Counted from the stretch's first letter, positions 19,542 to 43,655 are shown. The stretch is 64,000 nucleotides of DNA from an uncultured Candidatus Poseidoniales archaeon (GCA_963997415.1 CAXEMN010000001.1:24220-88219), one strand, 5' to 3'. The notes: generated by a model not told the origin, from the letters alone. A program made the numbers and translations.

Positions 19542-20066
19542 GATTGCATTGTACATGACAATGGCGCCTGCAAAGGCTCCAAGATCGATGCCCATGGCGT
19601 GCCAAATACCGTAACTGAACGGTGGAAGTTGCCTTCGTCCCCAAAGCATTGAGAGGGTCGCCCACGACAACAGTATCCCATACATGCCACAAAACAAAGC
19701 ACCCCATCCCGAAAGCCAGACCAGCAACAATGGCAACGCCAATACAGCAAATCCAAAGCTGTATTCGAGGTATCGCTCCAAGGTAGTGTGCACCAGAATT
19801 CGATACATTAGTGGGCTCAATACAAGCGCAACAATGAGCGCAAATTGAGGCGGGTTAGGGGCAAAAACAGAGTCGATTGAGGGCAGAGCATACGCTTGCC
19901 AAGCTCCACCTAATCCAGCCCCAATGAGGGCAGGCGCCAAGATATGTTTCAATCCTGTAAAGAAATCATCCTTCAAAGAAGTGGCCTTGGGCGCAGCCAC
20001 AGGTAATGCGGTCATTGCCTCCATGAATGGCCCAACTCGCCGCCTTGTTTGAGTCTTGGGTCTCAC
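19536..20066 (-). CDS. Hypothetical integral membrane protein
   Basis: About four hydrophobic segments and no recognisable motif. Its 3' end overlaps panB by 6 nt (convergent). The start may be ATG 20024. Confidence 0.4.
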
Positions 20067-20125
20067 CAGATTTGCATGATTCGAGCGCCGATGCCGATAT
20101 AGCCCCTAAGCGCTTGGCTTGTCTC

Positions 20126-21028
20126 ATGACGCAAGGTGAAATCGTAGCGGGTTGTTTGGCACCCCACCCTCCACATCTGGTCTATGCGGAAAACCCACCA
20201 CAAAATGAACCGGTTGCAGAAGGCGGTTGGGAACAGTTGCGCTGGGGTTATGAACGCCTAAGGGAGTCGCTCAAAGATGTTGAATATGATGCGATTGTTC
20301 TCCTTTCTCCACATTGGCAAACATATGTTGGAACCCATTTCCTTGGCCTTCCGCAATTCAAAAGTCTATCCGTCGACCCAGTTTTTCCTAACCTCTTTCG
20401 CTACCATTACGATTTGAACATCGATGTAGACCTGACCATGAAAATCCATGACAAGGCTGCAGAGGCTGGCCTTGCTGTGACAATGATGGAAAATCCAGAC
20501 TTCCGAGTTGATTATGGAACCATCACGACAGGTCACATGTTCAATCCAGAATGGGACAAGCCTCTTGTCGTCATTTCAAGCAATAGATCTCGTGATTATT
20601 ATTCAGTTGAAGTGATGCAGGAAATGATGATTGAACTGGGCAAGGTCACCAGAGAAGCAATCCTTGAAAGTGGTAAAAAAGTCGTCGTTCTGGCAAGCAA
20701 TTCACTCTCTCATCGCCACTTTACGACCGAATCAGCCATCCCCGAAGACATGAGCAAAGAACACATTACGAGCCATGCCATGCACCTTTGGGACATGCGG
20801 ATGATTGAGTACTTCCGTACCGGTCAGGCGCAAAGGATCCTCGATGAAATGCCAGAATTCACCGAGCAGGCGATCGCAGAAAGCGATGGCGGTGGACTCT
20901 CGTGGCTTCTTTCGACCCTCGACACCCCGACTTATCCGGCGACGCTTCATGGCTATGGCACCATTATTGGTACTGGAAACGCCATCGTTGAGTGGCCAGA
21001 ACGCAACCACACGGAGGGCTCACAATGA
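20126..21028 (+). CDS. LigB-superfamily extradiol dioxygenase, catalytic (2-aminophenol 1,6-dioxygenase beta/AmnB-like) subunit
   Basis: GEIVAGCLAPHPPHLVYAENPPQNEP, LLSPHWQ, RVDYGTITT, LASNSLSH and GYGTIIGTGNAIVEW resemble AmnB/NbzCb as I recall them. Start at ATG 20126. Confidence 0.7.
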   Translation: MTQGEIVAGCLAPHPPHLVYAENPPQNEPVAEGGWEQLRWGYERLRESLKDVEYDAIVLLSPHWQTYVGTHFLGLPQFKSLSVDPVFPNLFRYHYDLNIDVDLTMKIHDKAAEAGLAVTMMENPDFRVDYGTITTGHMFNPEWDKPLVVISSNRSRDYYSVEVMQEMMIELGKVTREAILESGKKVVVLASNSLSHRHFTTESAIPEDMSKEHITSHAMHLWDMRMIEYFRTGQAQRILDEMPEFTEQAIAESDGGGLSWLLSTLDTPTYPATLHGYGTIIGTGNAIVEWPERNHTEGSQ

Positions 21029-22446
21029 GTCAAGGCGAACTTGTAGGTTCCTACATTGTCCCAGTCCACCCCCACACCGTTCTGGCTCCAGAACAAAACG
21101 AAGGTTGGCAACGTTTGCGAGATGCATTTGATGAAGCTGCCAAGCGAATAAAAGAAGCAGAGGCCGATTTACTGATTATTTACTCCACAACTTGGCCGAG
21201 CATCATTGGGCATCAAATTCAGGCTGATCCAAATCCAGAATGGGTCATGGTCGACCATGACTTCCACGCTTTGGGTTCCATTCCATACTCGTTCAACATC
21301 GATGCTGAATTTGCCCATGCGTGGGATCAAGCGAACGCGAAGCGAGGCCTCAAATCCCGTACAGTGAATTACACTGGGTTCCCGATTGATGTTGGTTCTG
21401 TTGTCGCACTCAAACTTCTCAATCCTGACAATTCGATTCCAGCCGTGATCGTTTCTTCCAATGTGTATGCAAACCGGTCAGAAACGACTGTGTTGGCAAA
21501 GTCTTGCCTTGATGTGATCAAGGCAACAGGGCGAAAAGCGGTTGCGGTGACAGCGATGTCGCTTTCAAACCGCATGTTTACCACCCCGATTGAGCCCAAG
21601 GATGACAAAATTCATTCGTTGAAAGACGATGAATGGAATCGAAAGATTCTCGAATTCCTCGGCGAGGGCCGTCTCGAAGATGTGGGCCAACTCTCACGGA
21701 CCATTCACAAGCAAATTCGAGTTCAAAAAGTGGTGGCCTTCAAGCCGATGTGGTGGCTTTCTGGAATGAATGGAAACCGCAATAATTTGACCGGTGAGGT
21801 ACTTGCCTACGAAGCCATCCATGGTGCAGGTGGCGCTGTTGTTCACCTTGATCCAACACCGTCGGGGGCTGGGGACAAAGAGTACGATGAAGACGATGTG
21901 GAATTCTTCAGCGGTGAGCGGAATGTGCTCGATGCTGAAGGCGATGCCCCCTTGCCCGAGCCGCTGCCTGACCAGTCAAGCCCCTCTTCGGGTCCAGCGT
22001 TGTGGGAGCCCACTACAGGTGAAAGTTCAGTGAACAGTGAAGCGGCTCCAAAACCAGTGGGTATGTATCCTCACGCCCGCCGAGTTGGAGATTTGCTCTA
22101 TCTGTCAGGTGTTGGGCCACGCCAACCGGGCACCAATGCTATTCCTGGTGGTCCGATCAGTGATGATCAGGGTGCTCCACTGGATTACGACATCAAGGCA
22201 CAAACCCGTGCAGTTGTCGAAAACATCACTCGAATTCTTGAAGAAGCCGGAGGTTCAATCGATGATGTTTTGGATGTCACATCATTCCTTGTCGATATGG
22301 ACCGAGATTTTTCGGGCTACAATGAGGTCTGGGCTGAGACACTTGGAAAGGTCGGACCAACACGGACGACCTTGGCCATTCGGGCTTTGCCTACACCAAT
22401 CGCTGTCGAGATGAAAGTGATTGCAAAAGCGCCTCAAGAGAACTGA
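21025..22446 (+). CDS. Fusion of a LigB-like non-catalytic (AmnA-like alpha) subunit with a C-terminal RidA/YjgF-family deaminase domain
   Basis: ATGA overlap with the upstream gene. The N-terminal ~290 aa carry IIYSTTWPS (His lost relative to SPHW), VNYTGFPIDVGS and DDEWNRKILEF. An acidic/Pro linker follows, then a RidA domain: VGDLLYLSGVGP...RTTLAIRALPTPIAVEMKVIA. Confidence 0.7.
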   Translation: MSQGELVGSYIVPVHPHTVLAPEQNEGWQRLRDAFDEAAKRIKEAEADLLIIYSTTWPSIIGHQIQADPNPEWVMVDHDFHALGSIPYSFNIDAEFAHAWDQANAKRGLKSRTVNYTGFPIDVGSVVALKLLNPDNSIPAVIVSSNVYANRSETTVLAKSCLDVIKATGRKAVAVTAMSLSNRMFTTPIEPKDDKIHSLKDDEWNRKILEFLGEGRLEDVGQLSRTIHKQIRVQKVVAFKPMWWLSGMNGNRNNLTGEVLAYEAIHGAGGAVVHLDPTPSGAGDKEYDEDDVEFFSGERNVLDAEGDAPLPEPLPDQSSPSSGPALWEPTTGESSVNSEAAPKPVGMYPHARRVGDLLYLSGVGPRQPGTNAIPGGPISDDQGAPLDYDIKAQTRAVVENITRILEEAGGSIDDVLDVTSFLVDMDRDFSGYNEVWAETLGKVGPTRTTLAIRALPTPIAVEMKVIAKAPQEN

Positions 22447-37318: not shown

Positions 37319-37789
37319 TCATTTTCTTCGATTCCAAGGTGGCCATGTTCGGAAGCCCTTGGATGATTCGCGATCAGCAAACACTTGAATTCGAATTGTT
37401 TCACCTTCGACAAGAATGGCATCTTCAGCAGTTAAACCTGGACAGGTGGCCTTGACTTCATTCCATGCGCGCTCGGTTGCCAAATTTTCAGACCACCATG
37501 GAAACGCTGCACATTGTTGTGGACGGACTTCGTAAATGGAGCAGCGCTTCTCACCATCAAGGAAGATACAAACATCATCGCTTGCTCTACTTTTCAGAAT
37601 ATACCGTCCATCGAGGGTTTGTCTACAATCGCGTTCCAGCCACTCTTCGACCGGTAACTCATGATGCGCTGCAATACGTTCAGCATCATTTGTTGAAAGG
37701 TAGACAATACCCCCGGGTTCATCACAACAACGGCCACACTGCGGTTGGCATGAGAAGGGCACACCTGCCATCCACCAGGCGGCCTTCAT
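37319..37789 (-). CDS. YkgJ-family (UPF0153) Cys-cluster protein
   Basis: CQPQCGRCCDEPGG...VCIFLDGEKRCSIYEVRPQQCAAFPWW is the CxxCxxCC plus distal Cys pattern. ATGA overlap with the upstream gene. Confidence 0.65.
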   Translation of the reverse strand: MKAAWWMAGVPFSCQPQCGRCCDEPGGIVYLSTNDAERIAAHHELPVEEWLERDCRQTLDGRYILKSRASDDVCIFLDGEKRCSIYEVRPQQCAAFPWWSENLATERAWNEVKATCPGLTAEDAILVEGETIRIQVFADRESSKGFRTWPPWNRRK

Positions 37790-39837
37790 TCTTCTTCACC
37801 CAACGGTGTGATCGTTGCAGGTGAGATGGTGGAGAGGGTGATTTTCCTTACCGGTTCATCTTCAAGCAAATCCATCATGTCAATATTGGCCGCATCGACA
37901 TCCCATTCACCTTCCGGGACATAACTGTCGAGAGCCTCTTGTGGGTCGGCAACAGGCTTCTTTTTGCGCCTACCAACCGTTCTTCGCTTCTTTTCCACAT
38001 CTTCTTCAAACGGTGGTAAAGGCTCTCTTTCAGGATCTATTTCGACAAGTTCTTCCTCCAATCGTCGTAAATCGTCTGCAATCTGAATCAGTTCCTCAAT
38101 TGAGGCTTCAGATGTCTGTTCTGCTAATTGAATCATTTTTTGTTCAAGTTGTCCTAGACGAACACCTTGCTCTGTGAATTCGGATTCAAAGGCACCAATT
38201 TTGGCATCAATTGATTCATCCAAGTCAGTCAATATGTCTGCAGCAGTACTGTAATCTCGTTCTTCGATCCGCCCGGTACGTGCTACGAGGTGCTCTTCCC
38301 GTTCGTGAAGCGCAAGGACCGATGGAAGGCTAGGATCAATATCCTCAAGCGCAGTACGCATGTAAGCAGTGTGACGGGATTCAGCGTTACGCGCCATGGC
38401 CTCTGTATCAAATTGTGGCGGCTCATAGTCGTCCTCACCAATGGTTGGAAGCGTAGAGTGAAGCTCAATACCGCCAATTTTGTGGTCGCTGTAAACAACG
38501 TCAGATGCTTCTGCGATCAATCGAGTTGCAATGTCAGATACTTGCTCTCGTTCAACCGCGGGCCTAGGCCGTTGTGATTTGATGAGTTCACCAGACAGCA
38601 CGGATGCTACATCGTCACCATCGAGGAGTTCTTGCCCGGATTCAATGGCCAACGCAACCATATCGAAATTCGCTTTTGTGGCCCTCCACGAGGCTTCATT
38701 GTGGAGCACGATGCTGGCTAACTGTCCATCGTCAAGCATGAGGCTTCGTTGCAAAGCTAATTTTCGTGCAAACAGGACGAGGCTTGTTGGCTTTGGTGAA
38801 AATAGGTTGACGCTTGCTGCATTTTTGATCAGGTCCCAAAGCCTTGAGGCAGGCCATCGATGTGGTTCAATCATGCTCGTGAGTACGACGTGGACACCCA
38901 TGTTCAAAGCATAATCAACCATCATGCCAAGCATGCTTGCAACCTCTGGCTGATCAGCCACCATATGGACATCATCCACGGCGAAGAGTCGTGCATGAGC
39001 CAACGCCTCTTGCCAACCTTCAGGCAATCGTTCAAGGGACACGAGATCGGCTGCACCGAGCAAGAATACGCCCCCCTCCTGCCGCCTCAATACGCCTTGT
39101 GCAAGGGCGTGGAGGAGGTGAGATCTGCCACTTTCACTGGGTCCGATGATGACAAGAGGGTTCAATGCGGACCCTGGTGAGTCGACGATGGCTTCAGCCG
39201 CTTGTGTCGCTCGTAGATTTTCTTCAGTAGCGAACCATTGCTTGAAGCTCATTCGCGTTTCAGGGCGCAATCGTGGAGGCCATGGTGCCTGAATTGGTGC
39301 GGTTATGCTATGGTGGAATGGGGACTCTGGTTCTGGTAGGGCCATGTGTTCTGGTAGGGCATGAAGGGTTCTTCCACGTTGATCATCGAGCACACTTTCC
39401 CATACAGGTCGACCATCATGTTCCATTCCGACGAAGAAATCATCATCATTTGGCGAGGCATACCCCTTCTCAATTGAATCACCAGTTCGCTCCCGCAGAC
39501 TTCGTAATCGGTTTGCTACAATCGAAGCCAATGATTCATCATCGGTGGCAAGGTTGAGCGCAGGTTGATGTTTCCTGCTCTCCTTTCCAAGCACTGCATC
39601 TGCGACGAGGTCATAGGTTGGCCGTTGAACAACTCCGACCCTTTGCAGCAATGCACCTTGCTGTGGAACCGGTACTTCGCGCTTGCCTAACAATTGGTTC
39701 AACCTCGATTTTGGAGGTTGTGTTTTCTTGTCGCTTCGAGGTTCCTCTTCTGGGAAGGAGGTGGTTGCACCGGTGTCGCTTAGCCGTTGTTTGGCACGTG
39801 CAATTGCCAAATCCAAATGTTCCTTTCGAGAACTCAT
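37786..39837 (-). CDS. DnaA/Hda-like AAA+ domain protein with a degenerate Walker A, disordered N-terminus and coiled-coil/basic C-terminus
   Basis: Residues ~196-415 run MSFKQWFATEENLRATQAAEAIVDSPGSALNPLVIIGPSESGRSHLLHA...LFAVDDVHMV...VVLTS...SRLW...VNLFSPKP...ARKLALQRSLMLDDGQLASIV. This is collinear with DnaA domain III ([19 protein letters not shown]...LLIDDIQF...IILTSD...SRF...). No domain IV was seen. Confidence 0.6.
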   Translation of the reverse strand: MSSRKEHLDLAIARAKQRLSDTGATTSFPEEEPRSDKKTQPPKSRLNQLLGKREVPVPQQGALLQRVGVVQRPTYDLVADAVLGKESRKHQPALNLATDDESLASIVANRLRSLRERTGDSIEKGYASPNDDDFFVGMEHDGRPVWESVLDDQRGRTLHALPEHMALPEPESPFHHSITAPIQAPWPPRLRPETRMSFKQWFATEENLRATQAAEAIVDSPGSALNPLVIIGPSESGRSHLLHALAQGVLRRQEGGVFLLGAADLVSLERLPEGWQEALAHARLFAVDDVHMVADQPEVASMLGMMVDYALNMGVHVVLTSMIEPHRWPASRLWDLIKNAASVNLFSPKPTSLVLFARKLALQRSLMLDDGQLASIVLHNEASWRATKANFDMVALAIESGQELLDGDDVASVLSGELIKSQRPRPAVEREQVSDIATRLIAEASDVVYSDHKIGGIELHSTLPTIGEDDYEPPQFDTEAMARNAESRHTAYMRTALEDIDPSLPSVLALHEREEHLVARTGRIEERDYSTAADILTDLDESIDAKIGAFESEFTEQGVRLGQLEQKMIQLAEQTSEASIEELIQIADDLRRLEEELVEIDPEREPLPPFEEDVEKKRRTVGRRKKKPVADPQEALDSYVPEGEWDVDAANIDMMDLLEDEPVRKITLSTISPATITPLGEEE

Positions 39838-41792
39838 TTGGTCTCCTCCTTTTCTTGCCTCAAGCGTTCAAGATCTTCACGTTCCCATACACTGAGGTGG
39901 TCTTCGATGCTCCCTGGGCTTTGGGCCATTGAAGCAATTTCTCTCGGTAAGTGCTTAGGTTGTGCTTCGGCATCGATTCCCGGACGGGCAAGCAAGGGTG
40001 AAAGTGCCTCATCGGCTGCATCGGGTTGGCGGTCATTGACTGCTGCGATTGGCCGTGGTCCCCGATTCAATGGTGGTAACTCGTAGTTACCTTTCGCCGC
40101 ATCTTGTTGAGCAGCTTGATTGAGAGTCATACGTGGTGATGCAGGGGTTGAGAAGGTTCGTTCCACTGCTCTCTCCTGGCGCAGCGTGAACGATTCGAGG
40201 GTTGACGAGATTGCTGTTGGTTTGTGAACACTGGATTGCTTTGGGAACTCAGAGGGGCGTTCTGGTGCTTCCGCAGCCGCTGCAACACGAGCCACATGAG
40301 TCGGTAGTGCGACAGTATTCGCCTGTGTTTTTCCACGCCTGCGAACCCTATGAGCAGGGCGTGGTCCCTTTTTCACTACCGCAATCGGGGCCTGGACTTG
40401 TGGTTGTTCTTTGCGACGAGCGACTGGTTCAACAGCTTGTTTGATCGGAGGAACTGGTTCGCTTTTTGGCGGGGCGACAGGCATCGGTTTTGGTGCTGCT
40501 TGCCCCGCTTCGAGTGGTGGGTCAGGCGTCACTTGCGGCAGAGGTTCAGAGGCCATACTTTCTGGTTCGGCTTCTTCAGTTTTCCAAGATTCTATTTCTT
40601 CATCGAGTGCATCGTTCGCTTGCCTTCGCTCGTCAACGCTGGTTGGTTCATGACCTCCGATGAGTGGCGTGCCCGAATCAATAATTGGGGCTGAAGATGC
40701 GGAGTGTTCTATTGCCCTTTGCAGTTGTTGTTCGATCCATTCCCTCTCTTCCTCGGTTGGTGGGGCGCACAAAGGATGGTCGAGAATGAGATCAGGTTCA
40801 GTTAGCCAATGCTCTAATTCGCTAGGCTGAATTGACATCAGGCTGCGTGTGAGTCGGTGCCTTGGCTCCAAATCAAAGGCATTCAAATCAACCGTGAACA
40901 AGGCCACGTGATCATCCATTCGAACACCATCGACGATGTCGCGAATGAAATCAATCGTAGCGCCATCTCCATTCATTCCAGCCAAATATTCTATGCCTTC
41001 AATCAACACAACGGCTCTCATATTTTCCCAAAGGAACGCATCAACCGCCCGTCGTACTGACTCAATGGTCGGTTTGAGGGCCCTTGGATGCGTGCTGTTA
41101 CTTAGCCAATGGCATGATGCAGATGGCAGATTATGTTCGACGCTTAGTGCATCAATATCATGACGTGAGATCACCAAAACAGGACGTCCATGAGTTGCAA
41201 GATGGCCCGCTAGTTGGAACATCGAAGTTGGGTCTTGAGCATCCAATACCAAGGCATCACCTGGGTGAATCATTCGTTCGAGCCCTTCGTAGCGTTGCAT
41301 GTATGCCTTGCTTTTCTGGCGAACTGCCTCTGGTGCTTCAACACTCACCTCAAGTTCGGGCAAGCGTTCTTCACGGCGCCAACTCCCTGGTCTGAGTTTG
41401 ACATTGGACCACCAACGTTCGTCGCCCCCTTGCGAGGTATCCGCCACTTCGAGGTTGAGGTGTGCGTTGGTGTGAAGGTGCCGTATCCGTTGCGCATCTG
41501 CGGCAGGAAGTTCGTGAATGGCGATCAGTGTTTCGAGGGGTATGGCATCGTCTTCGATTTCCAGCAACGCTTCGAGTCCAAATACGATTGCTTCGCCTTC
41601 ATGGATGGCAAGGCTCGGATGCCCTTCAATGAAGAGAATGTGCCCTACACGTGGCATTTTGTCCTTTGGTTTACGCTCGGTTCGAATGAAACCAGTGGTT
41701 GACAACTTGGCCATATCAGCGGAGAGAAGGCGGAGCGCATCGCGGTCACCACGGCGTACTTCCGTGACATCGCCCTGCGGTAATTCGACCAT
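39834..41792 (-). CDS. DUF4388/DUF2226-like N-terminal domain plus DUF835-like domain protein with a long Pro-rich basic disordered tail
   Basis: N-terminus: TTGFIRTE...GHILFIEGHPSLAIHEG...GLEALLEI. Residues ~176-320: PVLVISRHD...CHWLSNS...AVVLIEGIEYL...IDFIRDIV...LFTVDLNAF (DUF835 pattern from memory). ATGA overlap with the next gene. Confidence 0.55.
   Translation of the reverse strand: MVELPQGDVTEVRRGDRDALRLLSADMAKLSTTGFIRTERKPKDKMPRVGHILFIEGHPSLAIHEGEAIVFGLEALLEIEDDAIPLETLIAIHELPAADAQRIRHLHTNAHLNLEVADTSQGGDERWWSNVKLRPGSWRREERLPELEVSVEAPEAVRQKSKAYMQRYEGLERMIHPGDALVLDAQDPTSMFQLAGHLATHGRPVLVISRHDIDALSVEHNLPSASCHWLSNSTHPRALKPTIESVRRAVDAFLWENMRAVVLIEGIEYLAGMNGDGATIDFIRDIVDGVRMDDHVALFTVDLNAFDLEPRHRLTRSLMSIQPSELEHWLTEPDLILDHPLCAPPTEEEREWIEQQLQRAIEHSASSAPIIDSGTPLIGGHEPTSVDERRQANDALDEEIESWKTEEAEPESMASEPLPQVTPDPPLEAGQAAPKPMPVAPPKSEPVPPIKQAVEPVARRKEQPQVQAPIAVVKKGPRPAHRVRRRGKTQANTVALPTHVARVAAAAEAPERPSEFPKQSSVHKPTAISSTLESFTLRQERAVERTFSTPASPRMTLNQAAQQDAAKGNYELPPLNRGPRPIAAVNDRQPDAADEALSPLLARPGIDAEAQPKHLPREIASMAQSPGSIEDHLSVWEREDLERLRQEKEETK
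39843..39849 (-). promoter_or_regulatory. Shine-Dalgarno-like GGAGGAG for the DnaA-like gene, embedded in the end of the upstream CDS
   Basis: The minus strand reads gaaaaGGAGGAGaccaaATGA, with 5-nt spacing to ATG 39837. Confidence 0.5.
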
Positions 41793-41895
41793 TGCTCACA
41801 CCCCTACGGGGTGTAAGCCTGCTGAACTGTTCTTGAAAGGTCCGCATGATTTTCCTCTGCGATAGCGGTTTGAAGCATGATGCTCTCGGGCCGAC

Positions 41896-42312
41896 ATGGG
41901 CGAAGCAATCGACACTTCTGAGATTCCGTATCTCGATGGTGAGGAATTGGCTCTATGGGAAGCGGGTTTGGAAGATTTCGATCATGGGAGATATTGGCAT
42001 GCTCATGAAGATTGGGAAGACCTGTGGAACGCTCACAAAAGAAGGCATGCACCTGAAGATGAGATTCTGTTCATTCAAGGCATGATTCAAACCGCAGCTC
42101 TGTTACTTAATCATGAACGAAAAAAGCAGCGCGGCGTGGACAATTTGACCATAAAAGTCAACGCCAAACTTGGCAAATGGGGGTCCGTCTGGGGCATCGA
42201 CATCGCTCGGCATCTTGACCAAATGAACCGATATGGAGATGATTCTGGCACATGGGATTTGGATGCGCAATCCTACGTCTTGGTCCGAACCGGCCGTGAA
42301 GTTCAAGATTGA
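41896..42312 (+). CDS. DUF309 domain protein
   Basis: FDHGRYWHAHEDWEDLW...GMIQTAALLLNHERKK matches the DUF309 helical pattern (xFxEAHExxExxW). Confidence 0.6.
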   Translation: MGEAIDTSEIPYLDGEELALWEAGLEDFDHGRYWHAHEDWEDLWNAHKRRHAPEDEILFIQGMIQTAALLLNHERKKQRGVDNLTIKVNAKLGKWGSVWGIDIARHLDQMNRYGDDSGTWDLDAQSYVLVRTGREVQD

Positions 42313-42330: not shown

Positions 42331-42981
42331 ATGCAGGAGTCGACCACAACCCTTCCTGCAGGATTGCGGCGTTTCAATGAACTTGAGCTTGCGCGTTCGT
42401 TCATGATTCGCTTTCTTCTTACATCCCTGGGCATTGGCCTTGTCGCCATGCTGTTGGCTTCATTCGTGTTCAACGCCATGGATTCGTTTGTCCTCGCTGC
42501 AGTGTGCTTAATCTCTGCTCCTGCTTTGATCTATCAATTGCACTCGAGATCGAGCATGCTTCATGTGCCTCTTGCCGTCGATATGAATCACCCATTCATG
42601 GATGAGGACCCCATTGGAAGTGCAACAGTGATGATTCGATTGTCTGATGGCGGCTGGGTTGATGTTGGTGAAGGACGAGTCCGACTTGCAGAGGATGAAC
42701 TCATTGGAGGTTCCAACCTTGTCCGTGACAACGAGGATTACACGCTCATCGGTCATTTTAACGACCTTCCAATGACGCATCGGGGCGTCAAAAAGCAGGT
42801 TGTCCTGATCAATCAAGCAATTGCGCTAAGAGATGCGGTCAACGGTGCTGAAGACACCATCGAAGATGCTCGAGAACGTGAAGCCAATGAGACTGGCCTG
42901 CTTGACAGATCGTGGTTTGAAGATCAGAAGGAAATTGAAATTGAACCCGATGGTCTGATGAGTAAACTTCGTGGTGAATAA
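42331..42981 (+). CDS. Hypothetical membrane protein (2 TM helices plus a soluble acidic C-terminal domain)
   Basis: Hydrophobic segments at residues ~25-70. No recognisable family. Confidence 0.4.
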   Translation: MQESTTTLPAGLRRFNELELARSFMIRFLLTSLGIGLVAMLLASFVFNAMDSFVLAAVCLISAPALIYQLHSRSSMLHVPLAVDMNHPFMDEDPIGSATVMIRLSDGGWVDVGEGRVRLAEDELIGGSNLVRDNEDYTLIGHFNDLPMTHRGVKKQVVLINQAIALRDAVNGAEDTIEDAREREANETGLLDRSWFEDQKEIEIEPDGLMSKLRGE

Positions 42982-43022: not shown

Positions 43023-43655
43023 TTGCTCAGACCAACAGATGTGACGACACCTACGCGATGGGGTCAAAAGCTCGAGCATTTGAGCCCGCAAGAGCAAGAT
43101 ACCCTGCTTGGGACTTCCCTCTCTCGTAGATTCACTATGCTACCATTGTGGCTTTCGCATCCAGCGAACATTGGTGCCTTTTACGGGCTGCTTGTCTCAA
43201 TTGCCCTCCTTCTTCCCTACAGATTTGCTGGTGATGATACAGATGCGTGGCTTGCAAATTGGGTGTTTCACACATCGATTTTGATGGTTGCATGTCTTCT
43301 TTTGGGTTTTTCATCCCTTCTTCTCATACGCTGGTCAAAGCGATTCCCAATGACGCCTCCAAGGCTTTTGCTCTACCCAATGCCGTTTGTCGGCATGGCT
43401 CTGTTAACCATCTCAAGGACTGATTTGGTCAATCTACCAATGTGGGTTGTATGGCTTCTCTTGTTGTTGCCCGGCCCAATGTACGTTCACCTTTCATGGG
43501 CTCCTCGATGGCGATTGTTGTGCATGCTTGAAGATGGACGAGATCCGTTCATTGGTATTGAATCAAAGCACTCCGAACCAAATGAAGATGCGGCAACCCT
43601 TGCCGGTGACGATGATGAATTACGATCTGTCGTCGAAGAGTATGCTGAGGAGTGA
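43023..43655 (+). CDS. Hypothetical integral membrane protein
   Basis: Four to five hydrophobic segments and an acidic C-terminus. The ORF begins with TTG; the first ATG is at 43137. Confidence 0.35.
   Translation: MLRPTDVTTPTRWGQKLEHLSPQEQDTLLGTSLSRRFTMLPLWLSHPANIGAFYGLLVSIALLLPYRFAGDDTDAWLANWVFHTSILMVACLLLGFSSLLLIRWSKRFPMTPPRLLLYPMPFVGMALLTISRTDLVNLPMWVVWLLLLLPGPMYVHLSWAPRWRLLCMLEDGRDPFIGIESKHSEPNEDAATLAGDDDELRSVVEEYAEE

What the first reader, a model, noticed from the sequence alone, without database searches (positions are those of the whole stretch)
37319..41792. Translationally coupled three-gene operon of unknown function: DUF835-type protein, DnaA-like AAA+ protein and YkgJ Cys-cluster protein
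Three minus-strand ORFs are chained by ATGA start/stop overlaps at 39834-39837 and 37786-37789. A GGAGGAG ribosome-binding site for gene 2 lies inside the end of gene 1, so they very likely form one co-translated unit.

- Gene 1 (652 aa) has a ~100-aa N-terminal domain resembling the DUF4388/DUF2226 type (TTGFIRTE...GHILFIEGHPSLAIHEG...GLEALL). A DUF835-like degenerate RecA/KaiC-fold domain follows (residues ~176-320), then ~300 aa of Pro/Ala/Gln-rich basic disorder with two GPRP motifs.
- Gene 2 (683 aa) has a disordered N-terminus, a DnaA/Hda-like AAA+ core, an acidic heptad-like coiled coil, and a KKRRTVGRRKKK patch.
- Gene 3 is a YkgJ CxxCxxCC protein.

None of the three has an assigned function, and I know of no described system combining these domains. 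Two long disordered scaffold proteins built around degenerate NTPase folds look more like an assembly or positioning machine (chromosome, division site or envelope) than a metabolic pathway. A DUF309 gene and two membrane-protein genes are divergently transcribed from the same 100-bp intergenic region and may belong to it.
Basis: partly seen in the sequence, partly recalled or inferred. Interest (0 to 1): 0.78.

Follow-up and report, generated by a model that had tools for sequence, protein, structure and literature searches.

The report
Conserved pseudo-ATPase gene pair in Poseidoniales
Marine Group II archaea all carry a tightly coupled pair of genes for two large, partly disordered proteins built on degenerate ATPase folds, one of them a bacterial-type DnaA module; the pair is real and conserved, no paper or curated family found here describes it, and its cellular job is unknown.

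Summary
The three minus-strand ORFs, both ATGA overlaps and the GGAGGAG site are exactly as described. Pfam confirms DUF835 (g1), Bac_DnaA (g2) and CxxCxxCC (g3).

- **g1-g2 pair:** g1 and g2 are adjacent in every locus long enough to show both: 83 mostly Poseidoniaceae loci plus ten deeper lineages (GC 32-70%). They overlap by 4 nt in 65 of 74 scorable junctions. Their evolutionary rates co-vary more than any other gene pair in the block (r = 0.78).
- **g1:** a small N-terminal alpha/beta domain, a RecA/KaiC fold without a P-loop ('iKaiC'), and a ~300-aa disordered tail with conserved short motifs.
- **g2:** a DnaA-domain-III/Hda-type AAA+ module without domains I or IV, flanked by conserved low-confidence segments, a coiled-coil hairpin, a basic patch and an acidic tail. 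Its catalytic residues were lost in lineage-specific patterns; here the Walker A Lys is Arg.
- **g3 and neighbours:** g3 overlaps g2 in Poseidoniaceae but is inverted in four deep lineages and missing in one. DUF309 is sporadic. The whole ~17-kb block is syntenic, so adjacency alone is weak evidence.

Best reading: an order-wide scaffold or switch complex of two degenerate ATPase-fold proteins, cellular role unknown. No paper or curated family found describes it.

The parts
39834..41792 (-). g1: 652-aa DUF835 ('iKaiC') protein
   Evidence: ORF. Pfam DUF835 E 2.4e-14. 288 homologues, all named ones Poseidoniales-type.
41463..41792 (-). g1 N-terminal alpha/beta domain (residues ~1-110)
   Evidence: AF2 model gives strands and helices over residues 8-106, with block-mean pLDDT 59-83. 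Conserved in all lineages. Only faint similarity to Pfam families: DUF2226 in 1 of 14 members at E 0.0065 and DUF4388 in 1 of 14 at E 0.11.
40803..41267 (-). g1 RecA/KaiC-fold domain without a P-loop (residues ~176-330). DAQDPTS sits where Walker A would be; the acidic E265 after a hydrophobic strand is retained.
   Evidence: pLDDT 84-93. Best Foldseek matches are FlaH/ArlH 4yds (E 3.4e-5), then RecA, DnaB and KaiC. Alignments A2 and A5.
39837..40712 (-). g1 disordered tail (residues 361-652). Conserved short motifs: GPRxAxRxRRxKK (474-488), LSPLLARPG (597-605) and a C-terminal WExED motif.
   Evidence: Conservation islands in alignment A2. Composition A, P, E, R, S. Motif coordinates.
37786..39837 (-). 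g2: 683-aa DnaA/Hda-like AAA+ protein
   Evidence: ORF. Pfam Bac_DnaA. 111 homologues.
38638..39282 (-). g2 AAA+ module homologous to DnaA domain III, lid included (residues ~186-400). Walker A GPSESGRS (232-239), Walker B VDDV (287-290), box VII SRLW (R332), sensor II WR (R385).
   Evidence: PDB profile search hits only DnaA (8btg, E 5e-13). Foldseek: 8bv3_A TM 0.82 and rmsd 2.6; Hda 3bos/5x06 TM 0.74-0.80. pLDDT 84-94. Motif census.
39283..39837 (-). g2 N-terminal region (residues 1-185): partly helical, low-confidence segments with conserved islands (SKLNxLLGK, RPTYDL..VLGKES, GRPVW..VLDxQRGR)
   Evidence: Alignments A1 and A6. AF2 block-mean pLDDT 45-76.
38038..38262 (-). g2 C-terminal coiled-coil hairpin (helices 526-575 and 580-600)
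   Evidence: AF2 secondary structure, pLDDT 81-86. Conserved IEELIxIADELRxLEExL.
37789..37992 (-). g2 tail: basic patch KKRRTVGRRKKK (616-627), acidic motif GEWDVD...DLLEDE (643-661) and C-terminal GEEE
   Evidence: The P-x-GEW-[DN]-[IV]-D...DLL motif and the acidic C-terminus are also kept in deep lineages.
37319..37789 (-). g3: 156-aa YkgJ-type Cys-cluster protein (CQPQCGRCC at residues 14-22). In the operon here; inverted or absent in some lineages.
   Evidence: Pfam CxxCxxCC E 9e-12. No NCBIfam hit. Orientation survey.
39834..39849 (-). g1/g2 junction: GGAGGAG (39843-39849) followed by the ATGA overlap (39834-39837)
   Evidence: The overlap is conserved in 65 of 74 scorable junctions.
37786..37800 (-). 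g2/g3 junction: GGTGA (37796-37800) followed by the ATGA overlap (37786-37789). The same bases encode the GEEE C-terminus of g2.
   Evidence: The overlap is conserved in 74 of 76 scorable junctions.
41799..41813 (-). Palindrome/hairpin CACCCC-NNN-GGGGTG, 6 nt upstream of the g1 ATG. Its 3' arm is the Shine-Dalgarno-like GGGGTG.
   Evidence: Unique in the window. Present in nearly all Poseidoniaceae loci. 92% of cells are paired, but covariation does not exceed the shuffles.
41830..41837 (-). TTCAAGAA box ~38-45 nt upstream of the g1 ATG: a candidate promoter or operator element
   Evidence: Conserved upstream of g1 in Poseidoniaceae. The deep loci L084, L086 and L002 keep it exactly; L088 and L091 keep the one-mismatch variants TTCAAGTG and TTCAAGAG. 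The 8-mer occurs 8 times on both strands of the window, against ~1.9 expected.

Best explanation
g1 and g2 form a core gene pair found across the order Poseidoniales. They are transcribed and translated as one unit and most likely assemble into one cytosolic hetero-oligomeric complex of two degenerate P-loop-NTPase-fold proteins.

**Shown**
- g1 carries a small N-terminal alpha/beta domain, a DUF835 RecA/KaiC fold with no P-loop, and a ~300-aa disordered tail with conserved short motifs.
- The only high-confidence globular part of g2 is a DnaA-domain-III/Hda-type AAA+ module. It is flanked by conserved low-confidence segments, a coiled-coil hairpin, a basic patch and an acidic tail.
- The genes overlap by 4 nt with a Shine-Dalgarno site inside g1. 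This arrangement holds in lineages whose GC ranges from 32% to 70%.
- The two proteins show the strongest rate covariation in the neighbourhood.
- Catalytic residues of the g2 AAA+ module were lost piecemeal in different lineages.

**Inferred**
- Conservation of the pair despite these losses suggests the AAA+ module no longer works as a hydrolysing motor. I infer that it acts as a nucleotide-binding or purely structural oligomerisation module, self-associating like DnaA or Hda.
- The g1 iKaiC domain docks on it.
- The disordered tails, with their basic and acidic motifs, recruit client proteins or nucleic acid.
- The complex is therefore a scaffold or switch rather than an enzyme.
- The AAA+ module was probably acquired from a bacterial DnaA or Hda gene by the ancestor of the order.

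**g3**
- g3 (YkgJ-type Cys-cluster protein) is an accessory neighbour. It is translationally coupled in Poseidoniaceae and several other lineages but dispensable for the arrangement.

**Role**
- The cellular process served is not established. My leading guess is a cell-cycle or chromosome-associated regulatory role.
For: - **Anatomy:**
- **DnaA-only sequence relatives in the PDB:**
- **Order-wide adjacency:** 79 of 83 loci have g1 next to g2. Three of the four exceptions are cut by contig ends; the fourth, L071, was not followed up. All ten deeper lineages also keep the pair.
- **Different upstream context:** the pair is intact in L090, where the upstream genes differ.
- **Translational coupling:** 4-nt overlap in 65 of 74 scorable junctions, with an SD-like site upstream in 57 of 74.
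- **Rate covariation:** the mirror-tree residual correlation is 0.78 for g1-g2, against at most 0.53 for any other pair.
- **Motif census of 174 family members:** Walker A is K in 76, R in 79 and C in 15. The box VII Arg is kept in 134 and the sensor II Arg in 123. Only 24 are fully canonical.
- **Restricted family:** 65 proteins at E < 1e-30 among 1.84 billion representatives. The named members sampled are Poseidoniales, Thalassarchaeaceae or 'Euryarchaeota archaeon' MAGs. The next-best matches inspected are DnaA-type proteins.
- **DUF835 in the literature:** it is treated as an inactivated KaiC output domain of archaeal response regulators (PMC5847659).
Against: - No direct evidence of a physical g1-g2 interaction: no multimer prediction and no fusion proteins seen.
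- The entire ~17-kb block is syntenic across the order, so adjacency and shared history inflate both the conservation and the covariation measures. Nearly all gene pairs gave significant Mantel tests.
- In L088 and L093 the genes are separated by 33 and 41 nt.
- Walker A Lys to Arg may still allow nucleotide binding or slow hydrolysis, and 24 family members keep all catalytic residues. An active ATPase cycle in some lineages is not excluded.
- No neighbouring gene supports a cell-cycle role.
Confidence: 0.5

Rival explanations
1. Replication or cell-cycle regulator. g2 is an archaeal counterpart of Hda or DnaA domain III. It contacts an initiator-clade AAA+ protein (Orc1/Cdc6) or single-stranded or duplex DNA through its DnaA-like surface and basic patch. 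g1 acts as its adaptor. Together they tune replication initiation or nucleoid organisation.
For: - The closest sequence and fold relatives are DnaA domain III and Hda.
- The box VII arginine (R332) and sensor II arginine (R385) are kept in the window's clade, although the Walker A Lys is lost. This would fit an arginine-finger donor.
- Basic patches are present in both proteins.
- The pair has core-gene status.
Against: - No DnaA domain IV or other DNA-binding domain.
- No PIP box or clamp-binding motif.
- R332 is replaced by N, D or I in Thalassarchaeaceae-type members.
- No replication genes in the 64-kb window and no clear GC-skew shift at the locus.
- Orc1/Cdc6 structures are not among the top fold matches.
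Confidence: 0.15
2. Signal-transduction adaptor for a type-IV-pilus-class motor (archaellum or pili). g1 combines a PATAN-like N-terminal domain with an ArlH-like inactive KaiC domain, both of which elsewhere bind secretion-ATPase motors. g2 acts as a nucleotide-sensing partner.
For: - The best fold match of the g1 core is FlaH/ArlH.
- There are faint DUF2226 and DUF4388 (PATAN) hits in g1 homologues.
- PATAN domains bind PilB and PilC (bioRxiv 10.1101/2021.06.11.447907).
- DUF835 is an output domain of archaeal response regulators (PMC5847659).
Against: - The PATAN/DUF2226 signal is below threshold and absent for the window protein.
- Only half of Thalassarchaeaceae genera have the archaellum operon (PMC6461757). 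The pair is nevertheless present in every lineage sampled, including Thalassarchaeaceae.
- No archaellum, pilus or chemotaxis genes lie nearby.
Confidence: 0.1
3. g1, g2 and g3, together with the divergent membrane proteins (and DUF309), form one membrane-anchored assembly or positioning machine.
For: - The g2-g3 ATGA overlap occurs in 74 of 76 scorable junctions.
- g3 shows the next-highest rate covariation with g2 (0.53) and g1 (0.43).
- TM1 and TM2 are present in every locus that reaches far enough except L090, and they evolve fast like g1 and g2.
Against: - g3 is on the opposite strand in L084/85, L088, L090 and L091 and is replaced by an unrelated ORF in L089.
- DUF309 is present in 19 of 83 loci.
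- TM1 and TM2 covary weakly with g1 and g2 (0.13-0.34) and are absent upstream in L090.
- Citrate synthase and other housekeeping genes are just as constantly adjacent, so adjacency here mostly reflects block synteny.
Confidence: 0.1
4. Accidental neighbours. g1 and g2 are functionally unrelated genes held together only by strong synteny and genome compaction.
For: - The whole block from pseudouridine synthase to TatC is collinear in all loci.
- 4-nt overlaps are common in compact genomes.
Against: - The pair survives where the upstream context is different (L090).
- Overlap plus an internal SD site is kept across very deep divergence.
- The g1-g2 residual rate correlation (0.78) stands well above all other neighbour pairs.
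- Both genes are found only in this order, and always together in loci long enough to show both.
Confidence: 0.08

Closest known systems
Hda / DnaA domain III (bacterial initiator-clade AAA+)
   Same: - The g2 core aligns to DnaA domain III, lid included: NPLxIxG..GxG[KR][ST]HL, the hhhDD Walker B, the box VII SRL motif and the sensor II WR motif.
- Foldseek gives TM 0.82 to B. subtilis DnaA domain III and 0.74-0.80 to Hda.
- Like Hda, it lacks domains I and IV.
   Different: - The host is an archaeon, which uses Orc1/Cdc6 rather than DnaA.
- It is 683 aa, with ~190 extra N-terminal and ~280 extra C-terminal residues.
- It has no clamp-binding motif.
- The Walker A Lys is replaced by Arg.
- Its scores are far below the DnaA and Hda equivalog cut-offs.
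- It is coupled to a DUF835 gene.
DUF835 / 'iKaiC' output domains of archaeal response regulators (REC-DUF835; Galperin et al. 2018, PMC5847659)
   Same: - g1 residues 193-317 pass the Pfam DUF835 threshold.
- The fold is RecA/KaiC-like without a P-loop.
   Different: - No REC or PAS domain.
- Instead it has a distinct N-terminal alpha/beta domain and a ~300-aa disordered tail.
- It is always paired with a DnaA-like gene.
ArlH/FlaH, the KaiC-like component of the archaellum motor (PDB 4yds)
   Same: It is the best structural match of the g1 core (E 3.4e-5, target-normalised TM 0.49).
   Different: - ArlH binds ATP through an intact Walker A. g1 has DAQDPTS at that position.
- Sequence identity is 12%.
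- There is no archaellum gene context.
PATAN (DUF4388) and DUF2226 domains
   Same: - Similar size (~105 aa).
- Similar pattern of a Gly-containing beta-rich core followed by a G.EAL helix; this resemblance rests on my memory of the family.
- One homologue each gives a weak hit.
   Different: - The hits are below threshold and absent for the window protein.
- No REC domain.
- No alpha-clip insertion was examined.
'DnaA-like' AAA+ ATPases of archaeal viruses and mobile elements (e.g. SSV, arCOG07960; PMC4158269)
   Same: The only other DnaA-like ATPases I found reported in archaea.
   Different: - g2 has no PHROG hit and no relatives in viral contigs.
- It sits in a stable core chromosomal block, not in an island.

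Membership tests
Pfam DUF835 (PF05763) | Whole-protein score above the gathering cut-off (33.1 bits) | tested here: met
   53.7 bits, E 2.4e-14, residues 193-317 aligned to profile positions 10-135 of 136
Active KaiC/RecA-type ATPase | Walker A GxxxxGK[ST] after strand 1 | tested here: not met
   The g1 sequence after strand 180-184 is DAQDPTS. No homologue in alignments A2 or A5 has a P-loop.
DnaA (TIGR00362 equivalog) | Whole-protein score of at least 343.9 bits | tested here: not met
   44.4 bits
DnaA | AAA+ domain III of DnaA type | tested here: met
   Pfam Bac_DnaA 35.6 bits against a cut-off of 23. PDB profile search hits only DnaA. Foldseek TM 0.82 to 8bv3_A.
DnaA | C-terminal DNA-binding domain IV and N-terminal domain I | tested here: not met
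   No Pfam or PDB match outside residues ~174-394. The AF2 model shows helices, a coiled coil and low-confidence segments instead.
Hda (TIGR03420 equivalog) | Whole-protein score of at least 194.8 bits; single-domain protein of ~230-250 aa | tested here: not met
   40.9 bits; the protein is 683 aa
Hda | N-terminal sliding-clamp-binding motif (QL[SD]L[FPL]-type), or an archaeal PIP box | tested here: not met
   Regular-expression scan of g1, g2 and g3 found none
Hda | Arginine finger in box VII | tested here: met
   R332 is invariant in the window's clade. It is kept in 134 of 174 family members and lost in Thalassarchaeaceae-type members.
Catalytically competent AAA+ | Walker A lysine | tested here: not met
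   The window protein has GPSESGRS. Across the family the position is K in 76, R in 79 and C in 15.
Pfam CxxCxxCC / YkgJ (PF03692) | Score above the gathering cut-off (23 bits) | tested here: met
   45.9 bits, E 9.3e-12. The first motif reads CxxxCxxCC.
FliB-type flagellin lysine methylase, a characterised PF03692 member (recalled from memory) | Match to a curated NCBIfam model | tested here: not met
   No NCBIfam hit for g3 at E up to 1
PATAN (DUF4388, PF14332) / DUF2226 (PF09987) | Profile match of the g1 N-terminal domain | tested here: inconclusive
   The window copy has no hit at E up to 10. Among 14 homologues, one hits DUF2226 at E 0.0065 and one hits DUF4388 at E 0.11. The domain could not be fold-searched on its own.
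Known anti-phage defence systems (PADLOC) or phage gene families (PHROGs) | Profile match | tested here: not met
   Only short P-loop matches for g2 in PADLOC (best E 1.2e-4 over 33 residues). No PHROG hit for g1 or g2. No relatives in viral contigs.
Translationally coupled operon | Start/stop overlap with an upstream SD-like site, conserved in relatives | tested here: met
   Co-transcription itself was not testable with these tools.

The most novel reading that the evidence does not exclude
The ancestor of Poseidoniales captured a bacterial DnaA or Hda AAA+ module. It rewired the module, together with an inactivated KaiC-fold partner, into a new archaeal cell-cycle device. One possibility is an Hda-like arginine-finger regulator of Orc1/Cdc6. 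Another is a nucleoid or division-site scaffold. Either would be a bacterial initiator module working inside an archaeal replication or division system.
Probability: 0.12. Interest if true: 0.85.

Novelty: new variant of a known kind. Interest (0 to 1): 0.6.

Why it matters
Poseidoniales are the most abundant planktonic archaea in surface oceans and have no cultured member, so their cell biology is inferred entirely from genomes.

- **Scale of the gap:** this pair is conserved across every lineage of the order sampled and occupies ~4 kb of ~2-Mb genomes (contigs of 1.8-2.1 Mb were seen). Public records name it only 'DUF835 domain-containing' and 'DnaA/Hda family'.
- **Domain crossing:** a DnaA-type AAA+ module as a core archaeal gene is unexpected, because archaea initiate replication with Orc1/Cdc6. 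It would be a clear case of a bacterial initiator module put to a new use.
- **Natural experiment:** different lineages lost different catalytic residues while the pair stayed conserved. This shows how an ATPase can become a structural or switch module.
- **Testability:** the pair is defined well enough to test by co-expression, multimer modelling and metatranscriptome mapping.

Tried and rejected
- **Defence-system reading:** PADLOC gave only trivial P-loop matches.
- **Viral or mobile origin:** no PHROG hits for g1 or g2 and no relatives in viral contigs. The locus is a stable core block.
- **Sequence search of the PDB:** nothing for g1, the g1 N-terminal domain or g3.
- **Per-member Pfam scan of the g1 N-terminal domain:** only two sub-threshold hits.
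- **PIP box, beta-clamp and APIM motifs:** no PIP-box or clamp-binding motif in any of the three proteins, and nothing in g1 or g2 beyond a loose PIP-like match inside the folded DUF835 domain. One chance APIM-like match occurs in g3.
- **Replication-origin context:** no clear GC-skew shift at the locus and no replication genes among 20 flanking ORFs.
- **RNA structure for the g1 upstream hairpin:** 92% of cells are paired, but covariation does not exceed the shuffles. It cannot be told apart from a conserved palindromic protein site.
- **TTCAAGAA as a general promoter box:** it occurs only 8 times in the window, mostly not at gene starts.
- **Broad alignments A6 and A1** were too divergent for the genome scan. 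The scan that worked used patterns specific to Poseidoniaceae, so it says nothing about other families.
- **Makarova et al. 2017 (KaiC-like hubs)** is not held in the library.


Full report
**Observation.** The window carries three minus-strand ORFs: g1 at 39834..41792 (652 aa), g2 at 37786..39837 (683 aa) and g3 at 37319..37789 (156 aa). The g1 stop and g2 start share ATGA at 39834-39837. GGAGGAG lies 5 nt upstream, inside g1. The g2 stop and g3 start share ATGA at 37786-37789, preceded by GGTGA. GGTGA matches part of the archaeal Shine-Dalgarno consensus GGAGGUGA; this point rests on my own knowledge. Pfam assigns DUF835 to g1 residues 193-317 (E 2.4e-14), Bac_DnaA to g2 residues 194-326 (E 1.3e-8) and CxxCxxCC to g3 (E 9e-12). 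It also assigns DUF309 to the divergent gene at 41896..42312. The two following ORFs have no family, and citrate synthase lies downstream. There are two corrections: the g1 tail is basic only in its middle, and the g3 motif reads CxxxCxxCC.

**Anatomy of g1.** An AlphaFold2 model of residues 1-370, built from 45 sequences, has mean pLDDT 72. It shows:

- an N-terminal alpha/beta domain (residues 8-106);
- a disordered linker (114-170) that contains the invariant WW motif;
- a well-predicted Rossmann-like domain (180-330, pLDDT 84-93).

Foldseek against the PDB places the Rossmann-like domain in the RecA/KaiC superfamily. The best match is FlaH/ArlH 4yds (E 3.4e-5), followed by RecA, DnaB, KaiC and Rad51/DMC1. 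Where Walker A should be, g1 and all its homologues have D(A/S)xDP (DAQDPTS here). An acidic residue after the Walker-B-like strand (E265) is invariant. This agrees with Galperin et al. 2018, who list DUF835 as an 'iKaiC' output domain of archaeal response regulators (PMC5847659). Residues ~361-652 are rich in Ala, Pro, Glu, Arg and Ser and align poorly. The exceptions are short islands: GPRxAxRxRRxKK, LSPLLARPG, RExAS..Q and a C-terminal WExED motif.

The window copy has no Pfam hit at E up to 10. Among 14 diverse homologues, one hits DUF2226 (E 0.0065) and one hits DUF4388 (E 0.11). DUF4388 is the PATAN domain, a protein-binding output domain that contacts the type IV pilus motor (bioRxiv 10.1101/2021.06.11.447907).

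**Anatomy of g2.** A profile of 49 family members hits only DnaA chains in the PDB (8btg, E 5e-13). The match covers domain III with its lid, at profile positions 174-394. In the AlphaFold2 model, residues ~200-400 have pLDDT 84-94. That part superposes on B. subtilis DnaA domain III with TM 0.82 and rmsd 2.6 Å, and on Hda with TM 0.74-0.80. RuvB and RFC follow, and Orc1/Cdc6 is not in the top 50. The NCBIfam DnaA and Hda equivalog scores are 44 and 41 bits against cut-offs of 344 and 195. The protein is therefore DnaA-derived but is neither DnaA nor Hda. There is no domain I and no domain IV. The rest of the protein consists of:

- residues 1-185: short helices and low-confidence segments with conserved islands (SKLNxLLGK, RPTYDL..VLGKES, GRPVW..VLDxQRGR);
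- residues 526-600: a helical hairpin with a heptad-like acidic pattern;
- the tail: the basic patch KKRRTVGRRKKK, the acidic motif P-x-GEW-[DN]-[IV]-D...DLL and an acidic C-terminus.

No PIP box or clamp-binding motif is present.

**Catalytic residues of g2.** I scored the motifs in 174 family members:

| Motif | State across the family |
|---|---|
| Walker A Lys | K in 76, R in 79 (including the window), C in 15, other in 4 |
| Walker B (DD) | D at the first position in 160, D at the second in 171 |
| Box VII Arg (R332) | kept in 134; N, D or I in Thalassarchaeaceae-type proteins |
| Sensor II Arg (R385) | kept in 123 |
| Fully canonical K-DD-R-R | 24 |

Different lineages have thus lost different parts of the catalytic machinery while the protein and its partner stayed conserved. 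This suggests that ATP hydrolysis is not the conserved function. Nucleotide binding was not tested.

**Distribution and context.**

- *Search results.* The word-indexed search found 111 g2 and 288 g1 clusters, and every named one is a Poseidoniales-type MAG. An exhaustive profile search of 1.84 billion representatives found 65 proteins at E < 1e-30. The next-best matches inspected are DnaA-type proteins, including tandem-AAA+ ones. Source names for the sampled deep members read 'Poseidoniales', 'Thalassarchaeaceae' or 'Euryarchaeota archaeon'.
- *Genome scan.* A scan of one genome per GTDB species returned 80 loci. All are Poseidoniaceae- or Poseidoniales-type apart from two evidently mis-binned contigs, and one is the original MG-II genome CM001443.1. 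The search patterns were specific to Poseidoniaceae.
- *Gene order.* In all 83 loci then in hand, the order is aminotransferase, TM2, TM1, (DUF309), g1, g2, g3, citrate synthase, GDPD, PAP2 wherever the contig is long enough. DUF309 is present in only 19.
- *Overlaps.* The g1-g2 4-nt overlap holds in 65 of 74 scorable junctions. The g2-g3 overlap holds in 74 of 76.
- *Deep lineages.* Ten deeper lineages were reached through exact-protein look-ups. Their GC ranges from 32% to 70%, and their citrate synthase is 51-74% identical. All keep g1 immediately upstream of g2. Five overlap by 4 nt, one by 14 nt and one by 1 nt. Two have gaps of 33 and 41 nt. In L094 the g2 gene call appears truncated at its 5' end.
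- *L090.* The upstream genes are different (PCMT, a HEAT-repeat protein and an M61 peptidase), and the pair is still intact.
- *g3 orientation.* g3 is co-oriented in five of these ten lineages. It is on the opposite strand in four (L084/85, L088, L090, L091). In L089 it is replaced by an unrelated membrane ORF.

**Is the linkage more than synteny?** Because the whole block is collinear, adjacency alone is weak evidence. Three observations go further:

1. The pair persists where the upstream context changed (L090).
2. The overlap and internal SD site persist down to ~20-25% protein identity.
3. A mirror-tree analysis on 52 loci, after regressing out the aminotransferase and citrate synthase distances, gives a residual correlation of 0.78 for g1-g2. 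It gives 0.53 for g2-g3, 0.43 for g1-g3 and at most 0.38 for every other pair.

The Mantel p-values are low for nearly all pairs, so only the ranking is informative. g1, g2 and TM1 evolve 4-8 times faster than the flanking enzymes.

**Interpretation.**

- *Shown:* a conserved, translationally coupled pair encoding two large proteins. Each is built on a degenerate P-loop-NTPase fold with long low-confidence or poorly aligning regions that carry conserved short motifs.
- *Inferred:* the two proteins form a stoichiometric complex. The DnaA-like module supplies nucleotide-dependent or purely structural self-association. The iKaiC domain docks on it, and the tails recruit partners or nucleic acid through basic and acidic motifs. 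That makes it a scaffold or switch rather than an enzyme or motor. I give this general model about 0.5.
- *Role:* the cellular role is open. The DnaA ancestry, the retained arginine finger in the window's clade and the basic patches favour a cell-cycle or chromosome-related role (about 0.15). There is, however, no DNA-binding domain, no clamp motif and no supporting gene context. The ArlH-like fold and the faint PATAN signal suggest a motor-regulating adaptor (about 0.1). Against this, the pair was present in every lineage sampled, including Thalassarchaeaceae, whereas only half of Thalassarchaeaceae genera have the archaellum operon (PMC6461757).
- *Larger unit:* a membrane-anchored machine that includes g3, TM1, TM2 and DUF309 is weakened by the g3 inversions and the sporadic DUF309.
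- *Excluded:* a defence-system origin or a viral or mobile-element origin finds no support.

**Comparison with what is known.** The parts belong to known superfamilies. g1 is a member of DUF835 and g3 is a member of PF03692. g2 is a DnaA-domain-III homologue that fails the DnaA and Hda membership tests. I found no description of a DnaA-type AAA+ protein as a core chromosomal gene of an archaeal order, or of its pairing with DUF835. The DnaA-like ATPases I found reported in archaea are viral or belong to mobile elements (PMC4158269). Acquisition from bacteria is an inference from this distribution. It is consistent with reports of extensive gene transfer into this order (PMC6461757).

**Verdict.** The feature is real. 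I rate it a new variant of a known kind, with interest 0.6. The main gaps are the lack of direct evidence for a complex and the lack of any functional clue.

Noticed in passing
window 41799-41813 (and 41830-41837): A perfect palindrome CACCCC-TAC-GGGGTG lies 6 nt upstream of the g1 start codon, and its 3' arm is the SD-like GGGGTG. It is conserved in nearly all Poseidoniaceae loci and unique in the window. It could be an SD-sequestering 5' hairpin or a protein operator; covariation does not decide between them. A TTCAAGAA box ~40 nt upstream of the start codon is kept exactly in three deep loci (L084, L086, L002) and with one mismatch in L088 and L091.
   Followed up: partly
window 37789-37800: The codons for the conserved C-terminal GEEE of g2 (GGTGAAGAAGAA followed by TGA) also provide the GGTGA ribosome-binding site and the ATGA overlap for g3. 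Protein and translation signals are therefore superimposed. An acidic C-terminus is nevertheless kept in lineages where g3 is on the other strand.
   Followed up: partly
window 42331-42981 and 43023-43655: Two membrane-protein genes without any family assignment are divergently transcribed from g1. They are conserved across the order (absent upstream in L090). TM1 evolves as fast as g1. Both end in acidic tails.
   Followed up: partly
L090:11404-12126: In the 70%-GC lineage, a 240-aa KaiC-like ATPase gene (PF06745, AAA_25, DUF7125) is inserted between the g3 homologue and citrate synthase.
   Followed up: no
L084:5860-8004, L088:5469-7967, L090:4423-7725, L091:5497-8004: g1 homologues of Thalassarchaeaceae-type and high-GC lineages are 714-1100 aa. 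They end in an extra conserved helical segment (pattern ...L..L.d.G......l...le.dr..g.elL..le) that is absent from the window protein.
   Followed up: no
proteins P0290, P0291, P0302: These proteins of ~585-650 aa carry two tandem, apparently intact DnaA-domain-III AAA+ modules. They were the next-best matches after the Poseidoniales family in the exhaustive search. Their source organisms are not known.
   Followed up: no
L069 (NZFX01000059.1) and L077 (CAXQWT010000063.1): Contigs filed under a 'Phycisphaerae bacterium' MAG and a 'Salipiger bermudensis' MAG carry the complete Poseidoniales gene order around g1-g2. They are almost certainly mis-binned archaeal contigs.
   Followed up: partly
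L001:6280-6400: In the 1.79-Mb polished contig, the g1 homologue is broken by a frameshift after MVELPEGIIVEERRG. This is probably an assembly error rather than a pseudogene. In L002 the gene is called in two pieces (183 and 437 aa).
   Followed up: partly
window 20027-22446: Two adjacent LigB-family extradiol dioxygenase genes. The second is fused to a C-terminal RidA/L-PSP domain.
   Followed up: no
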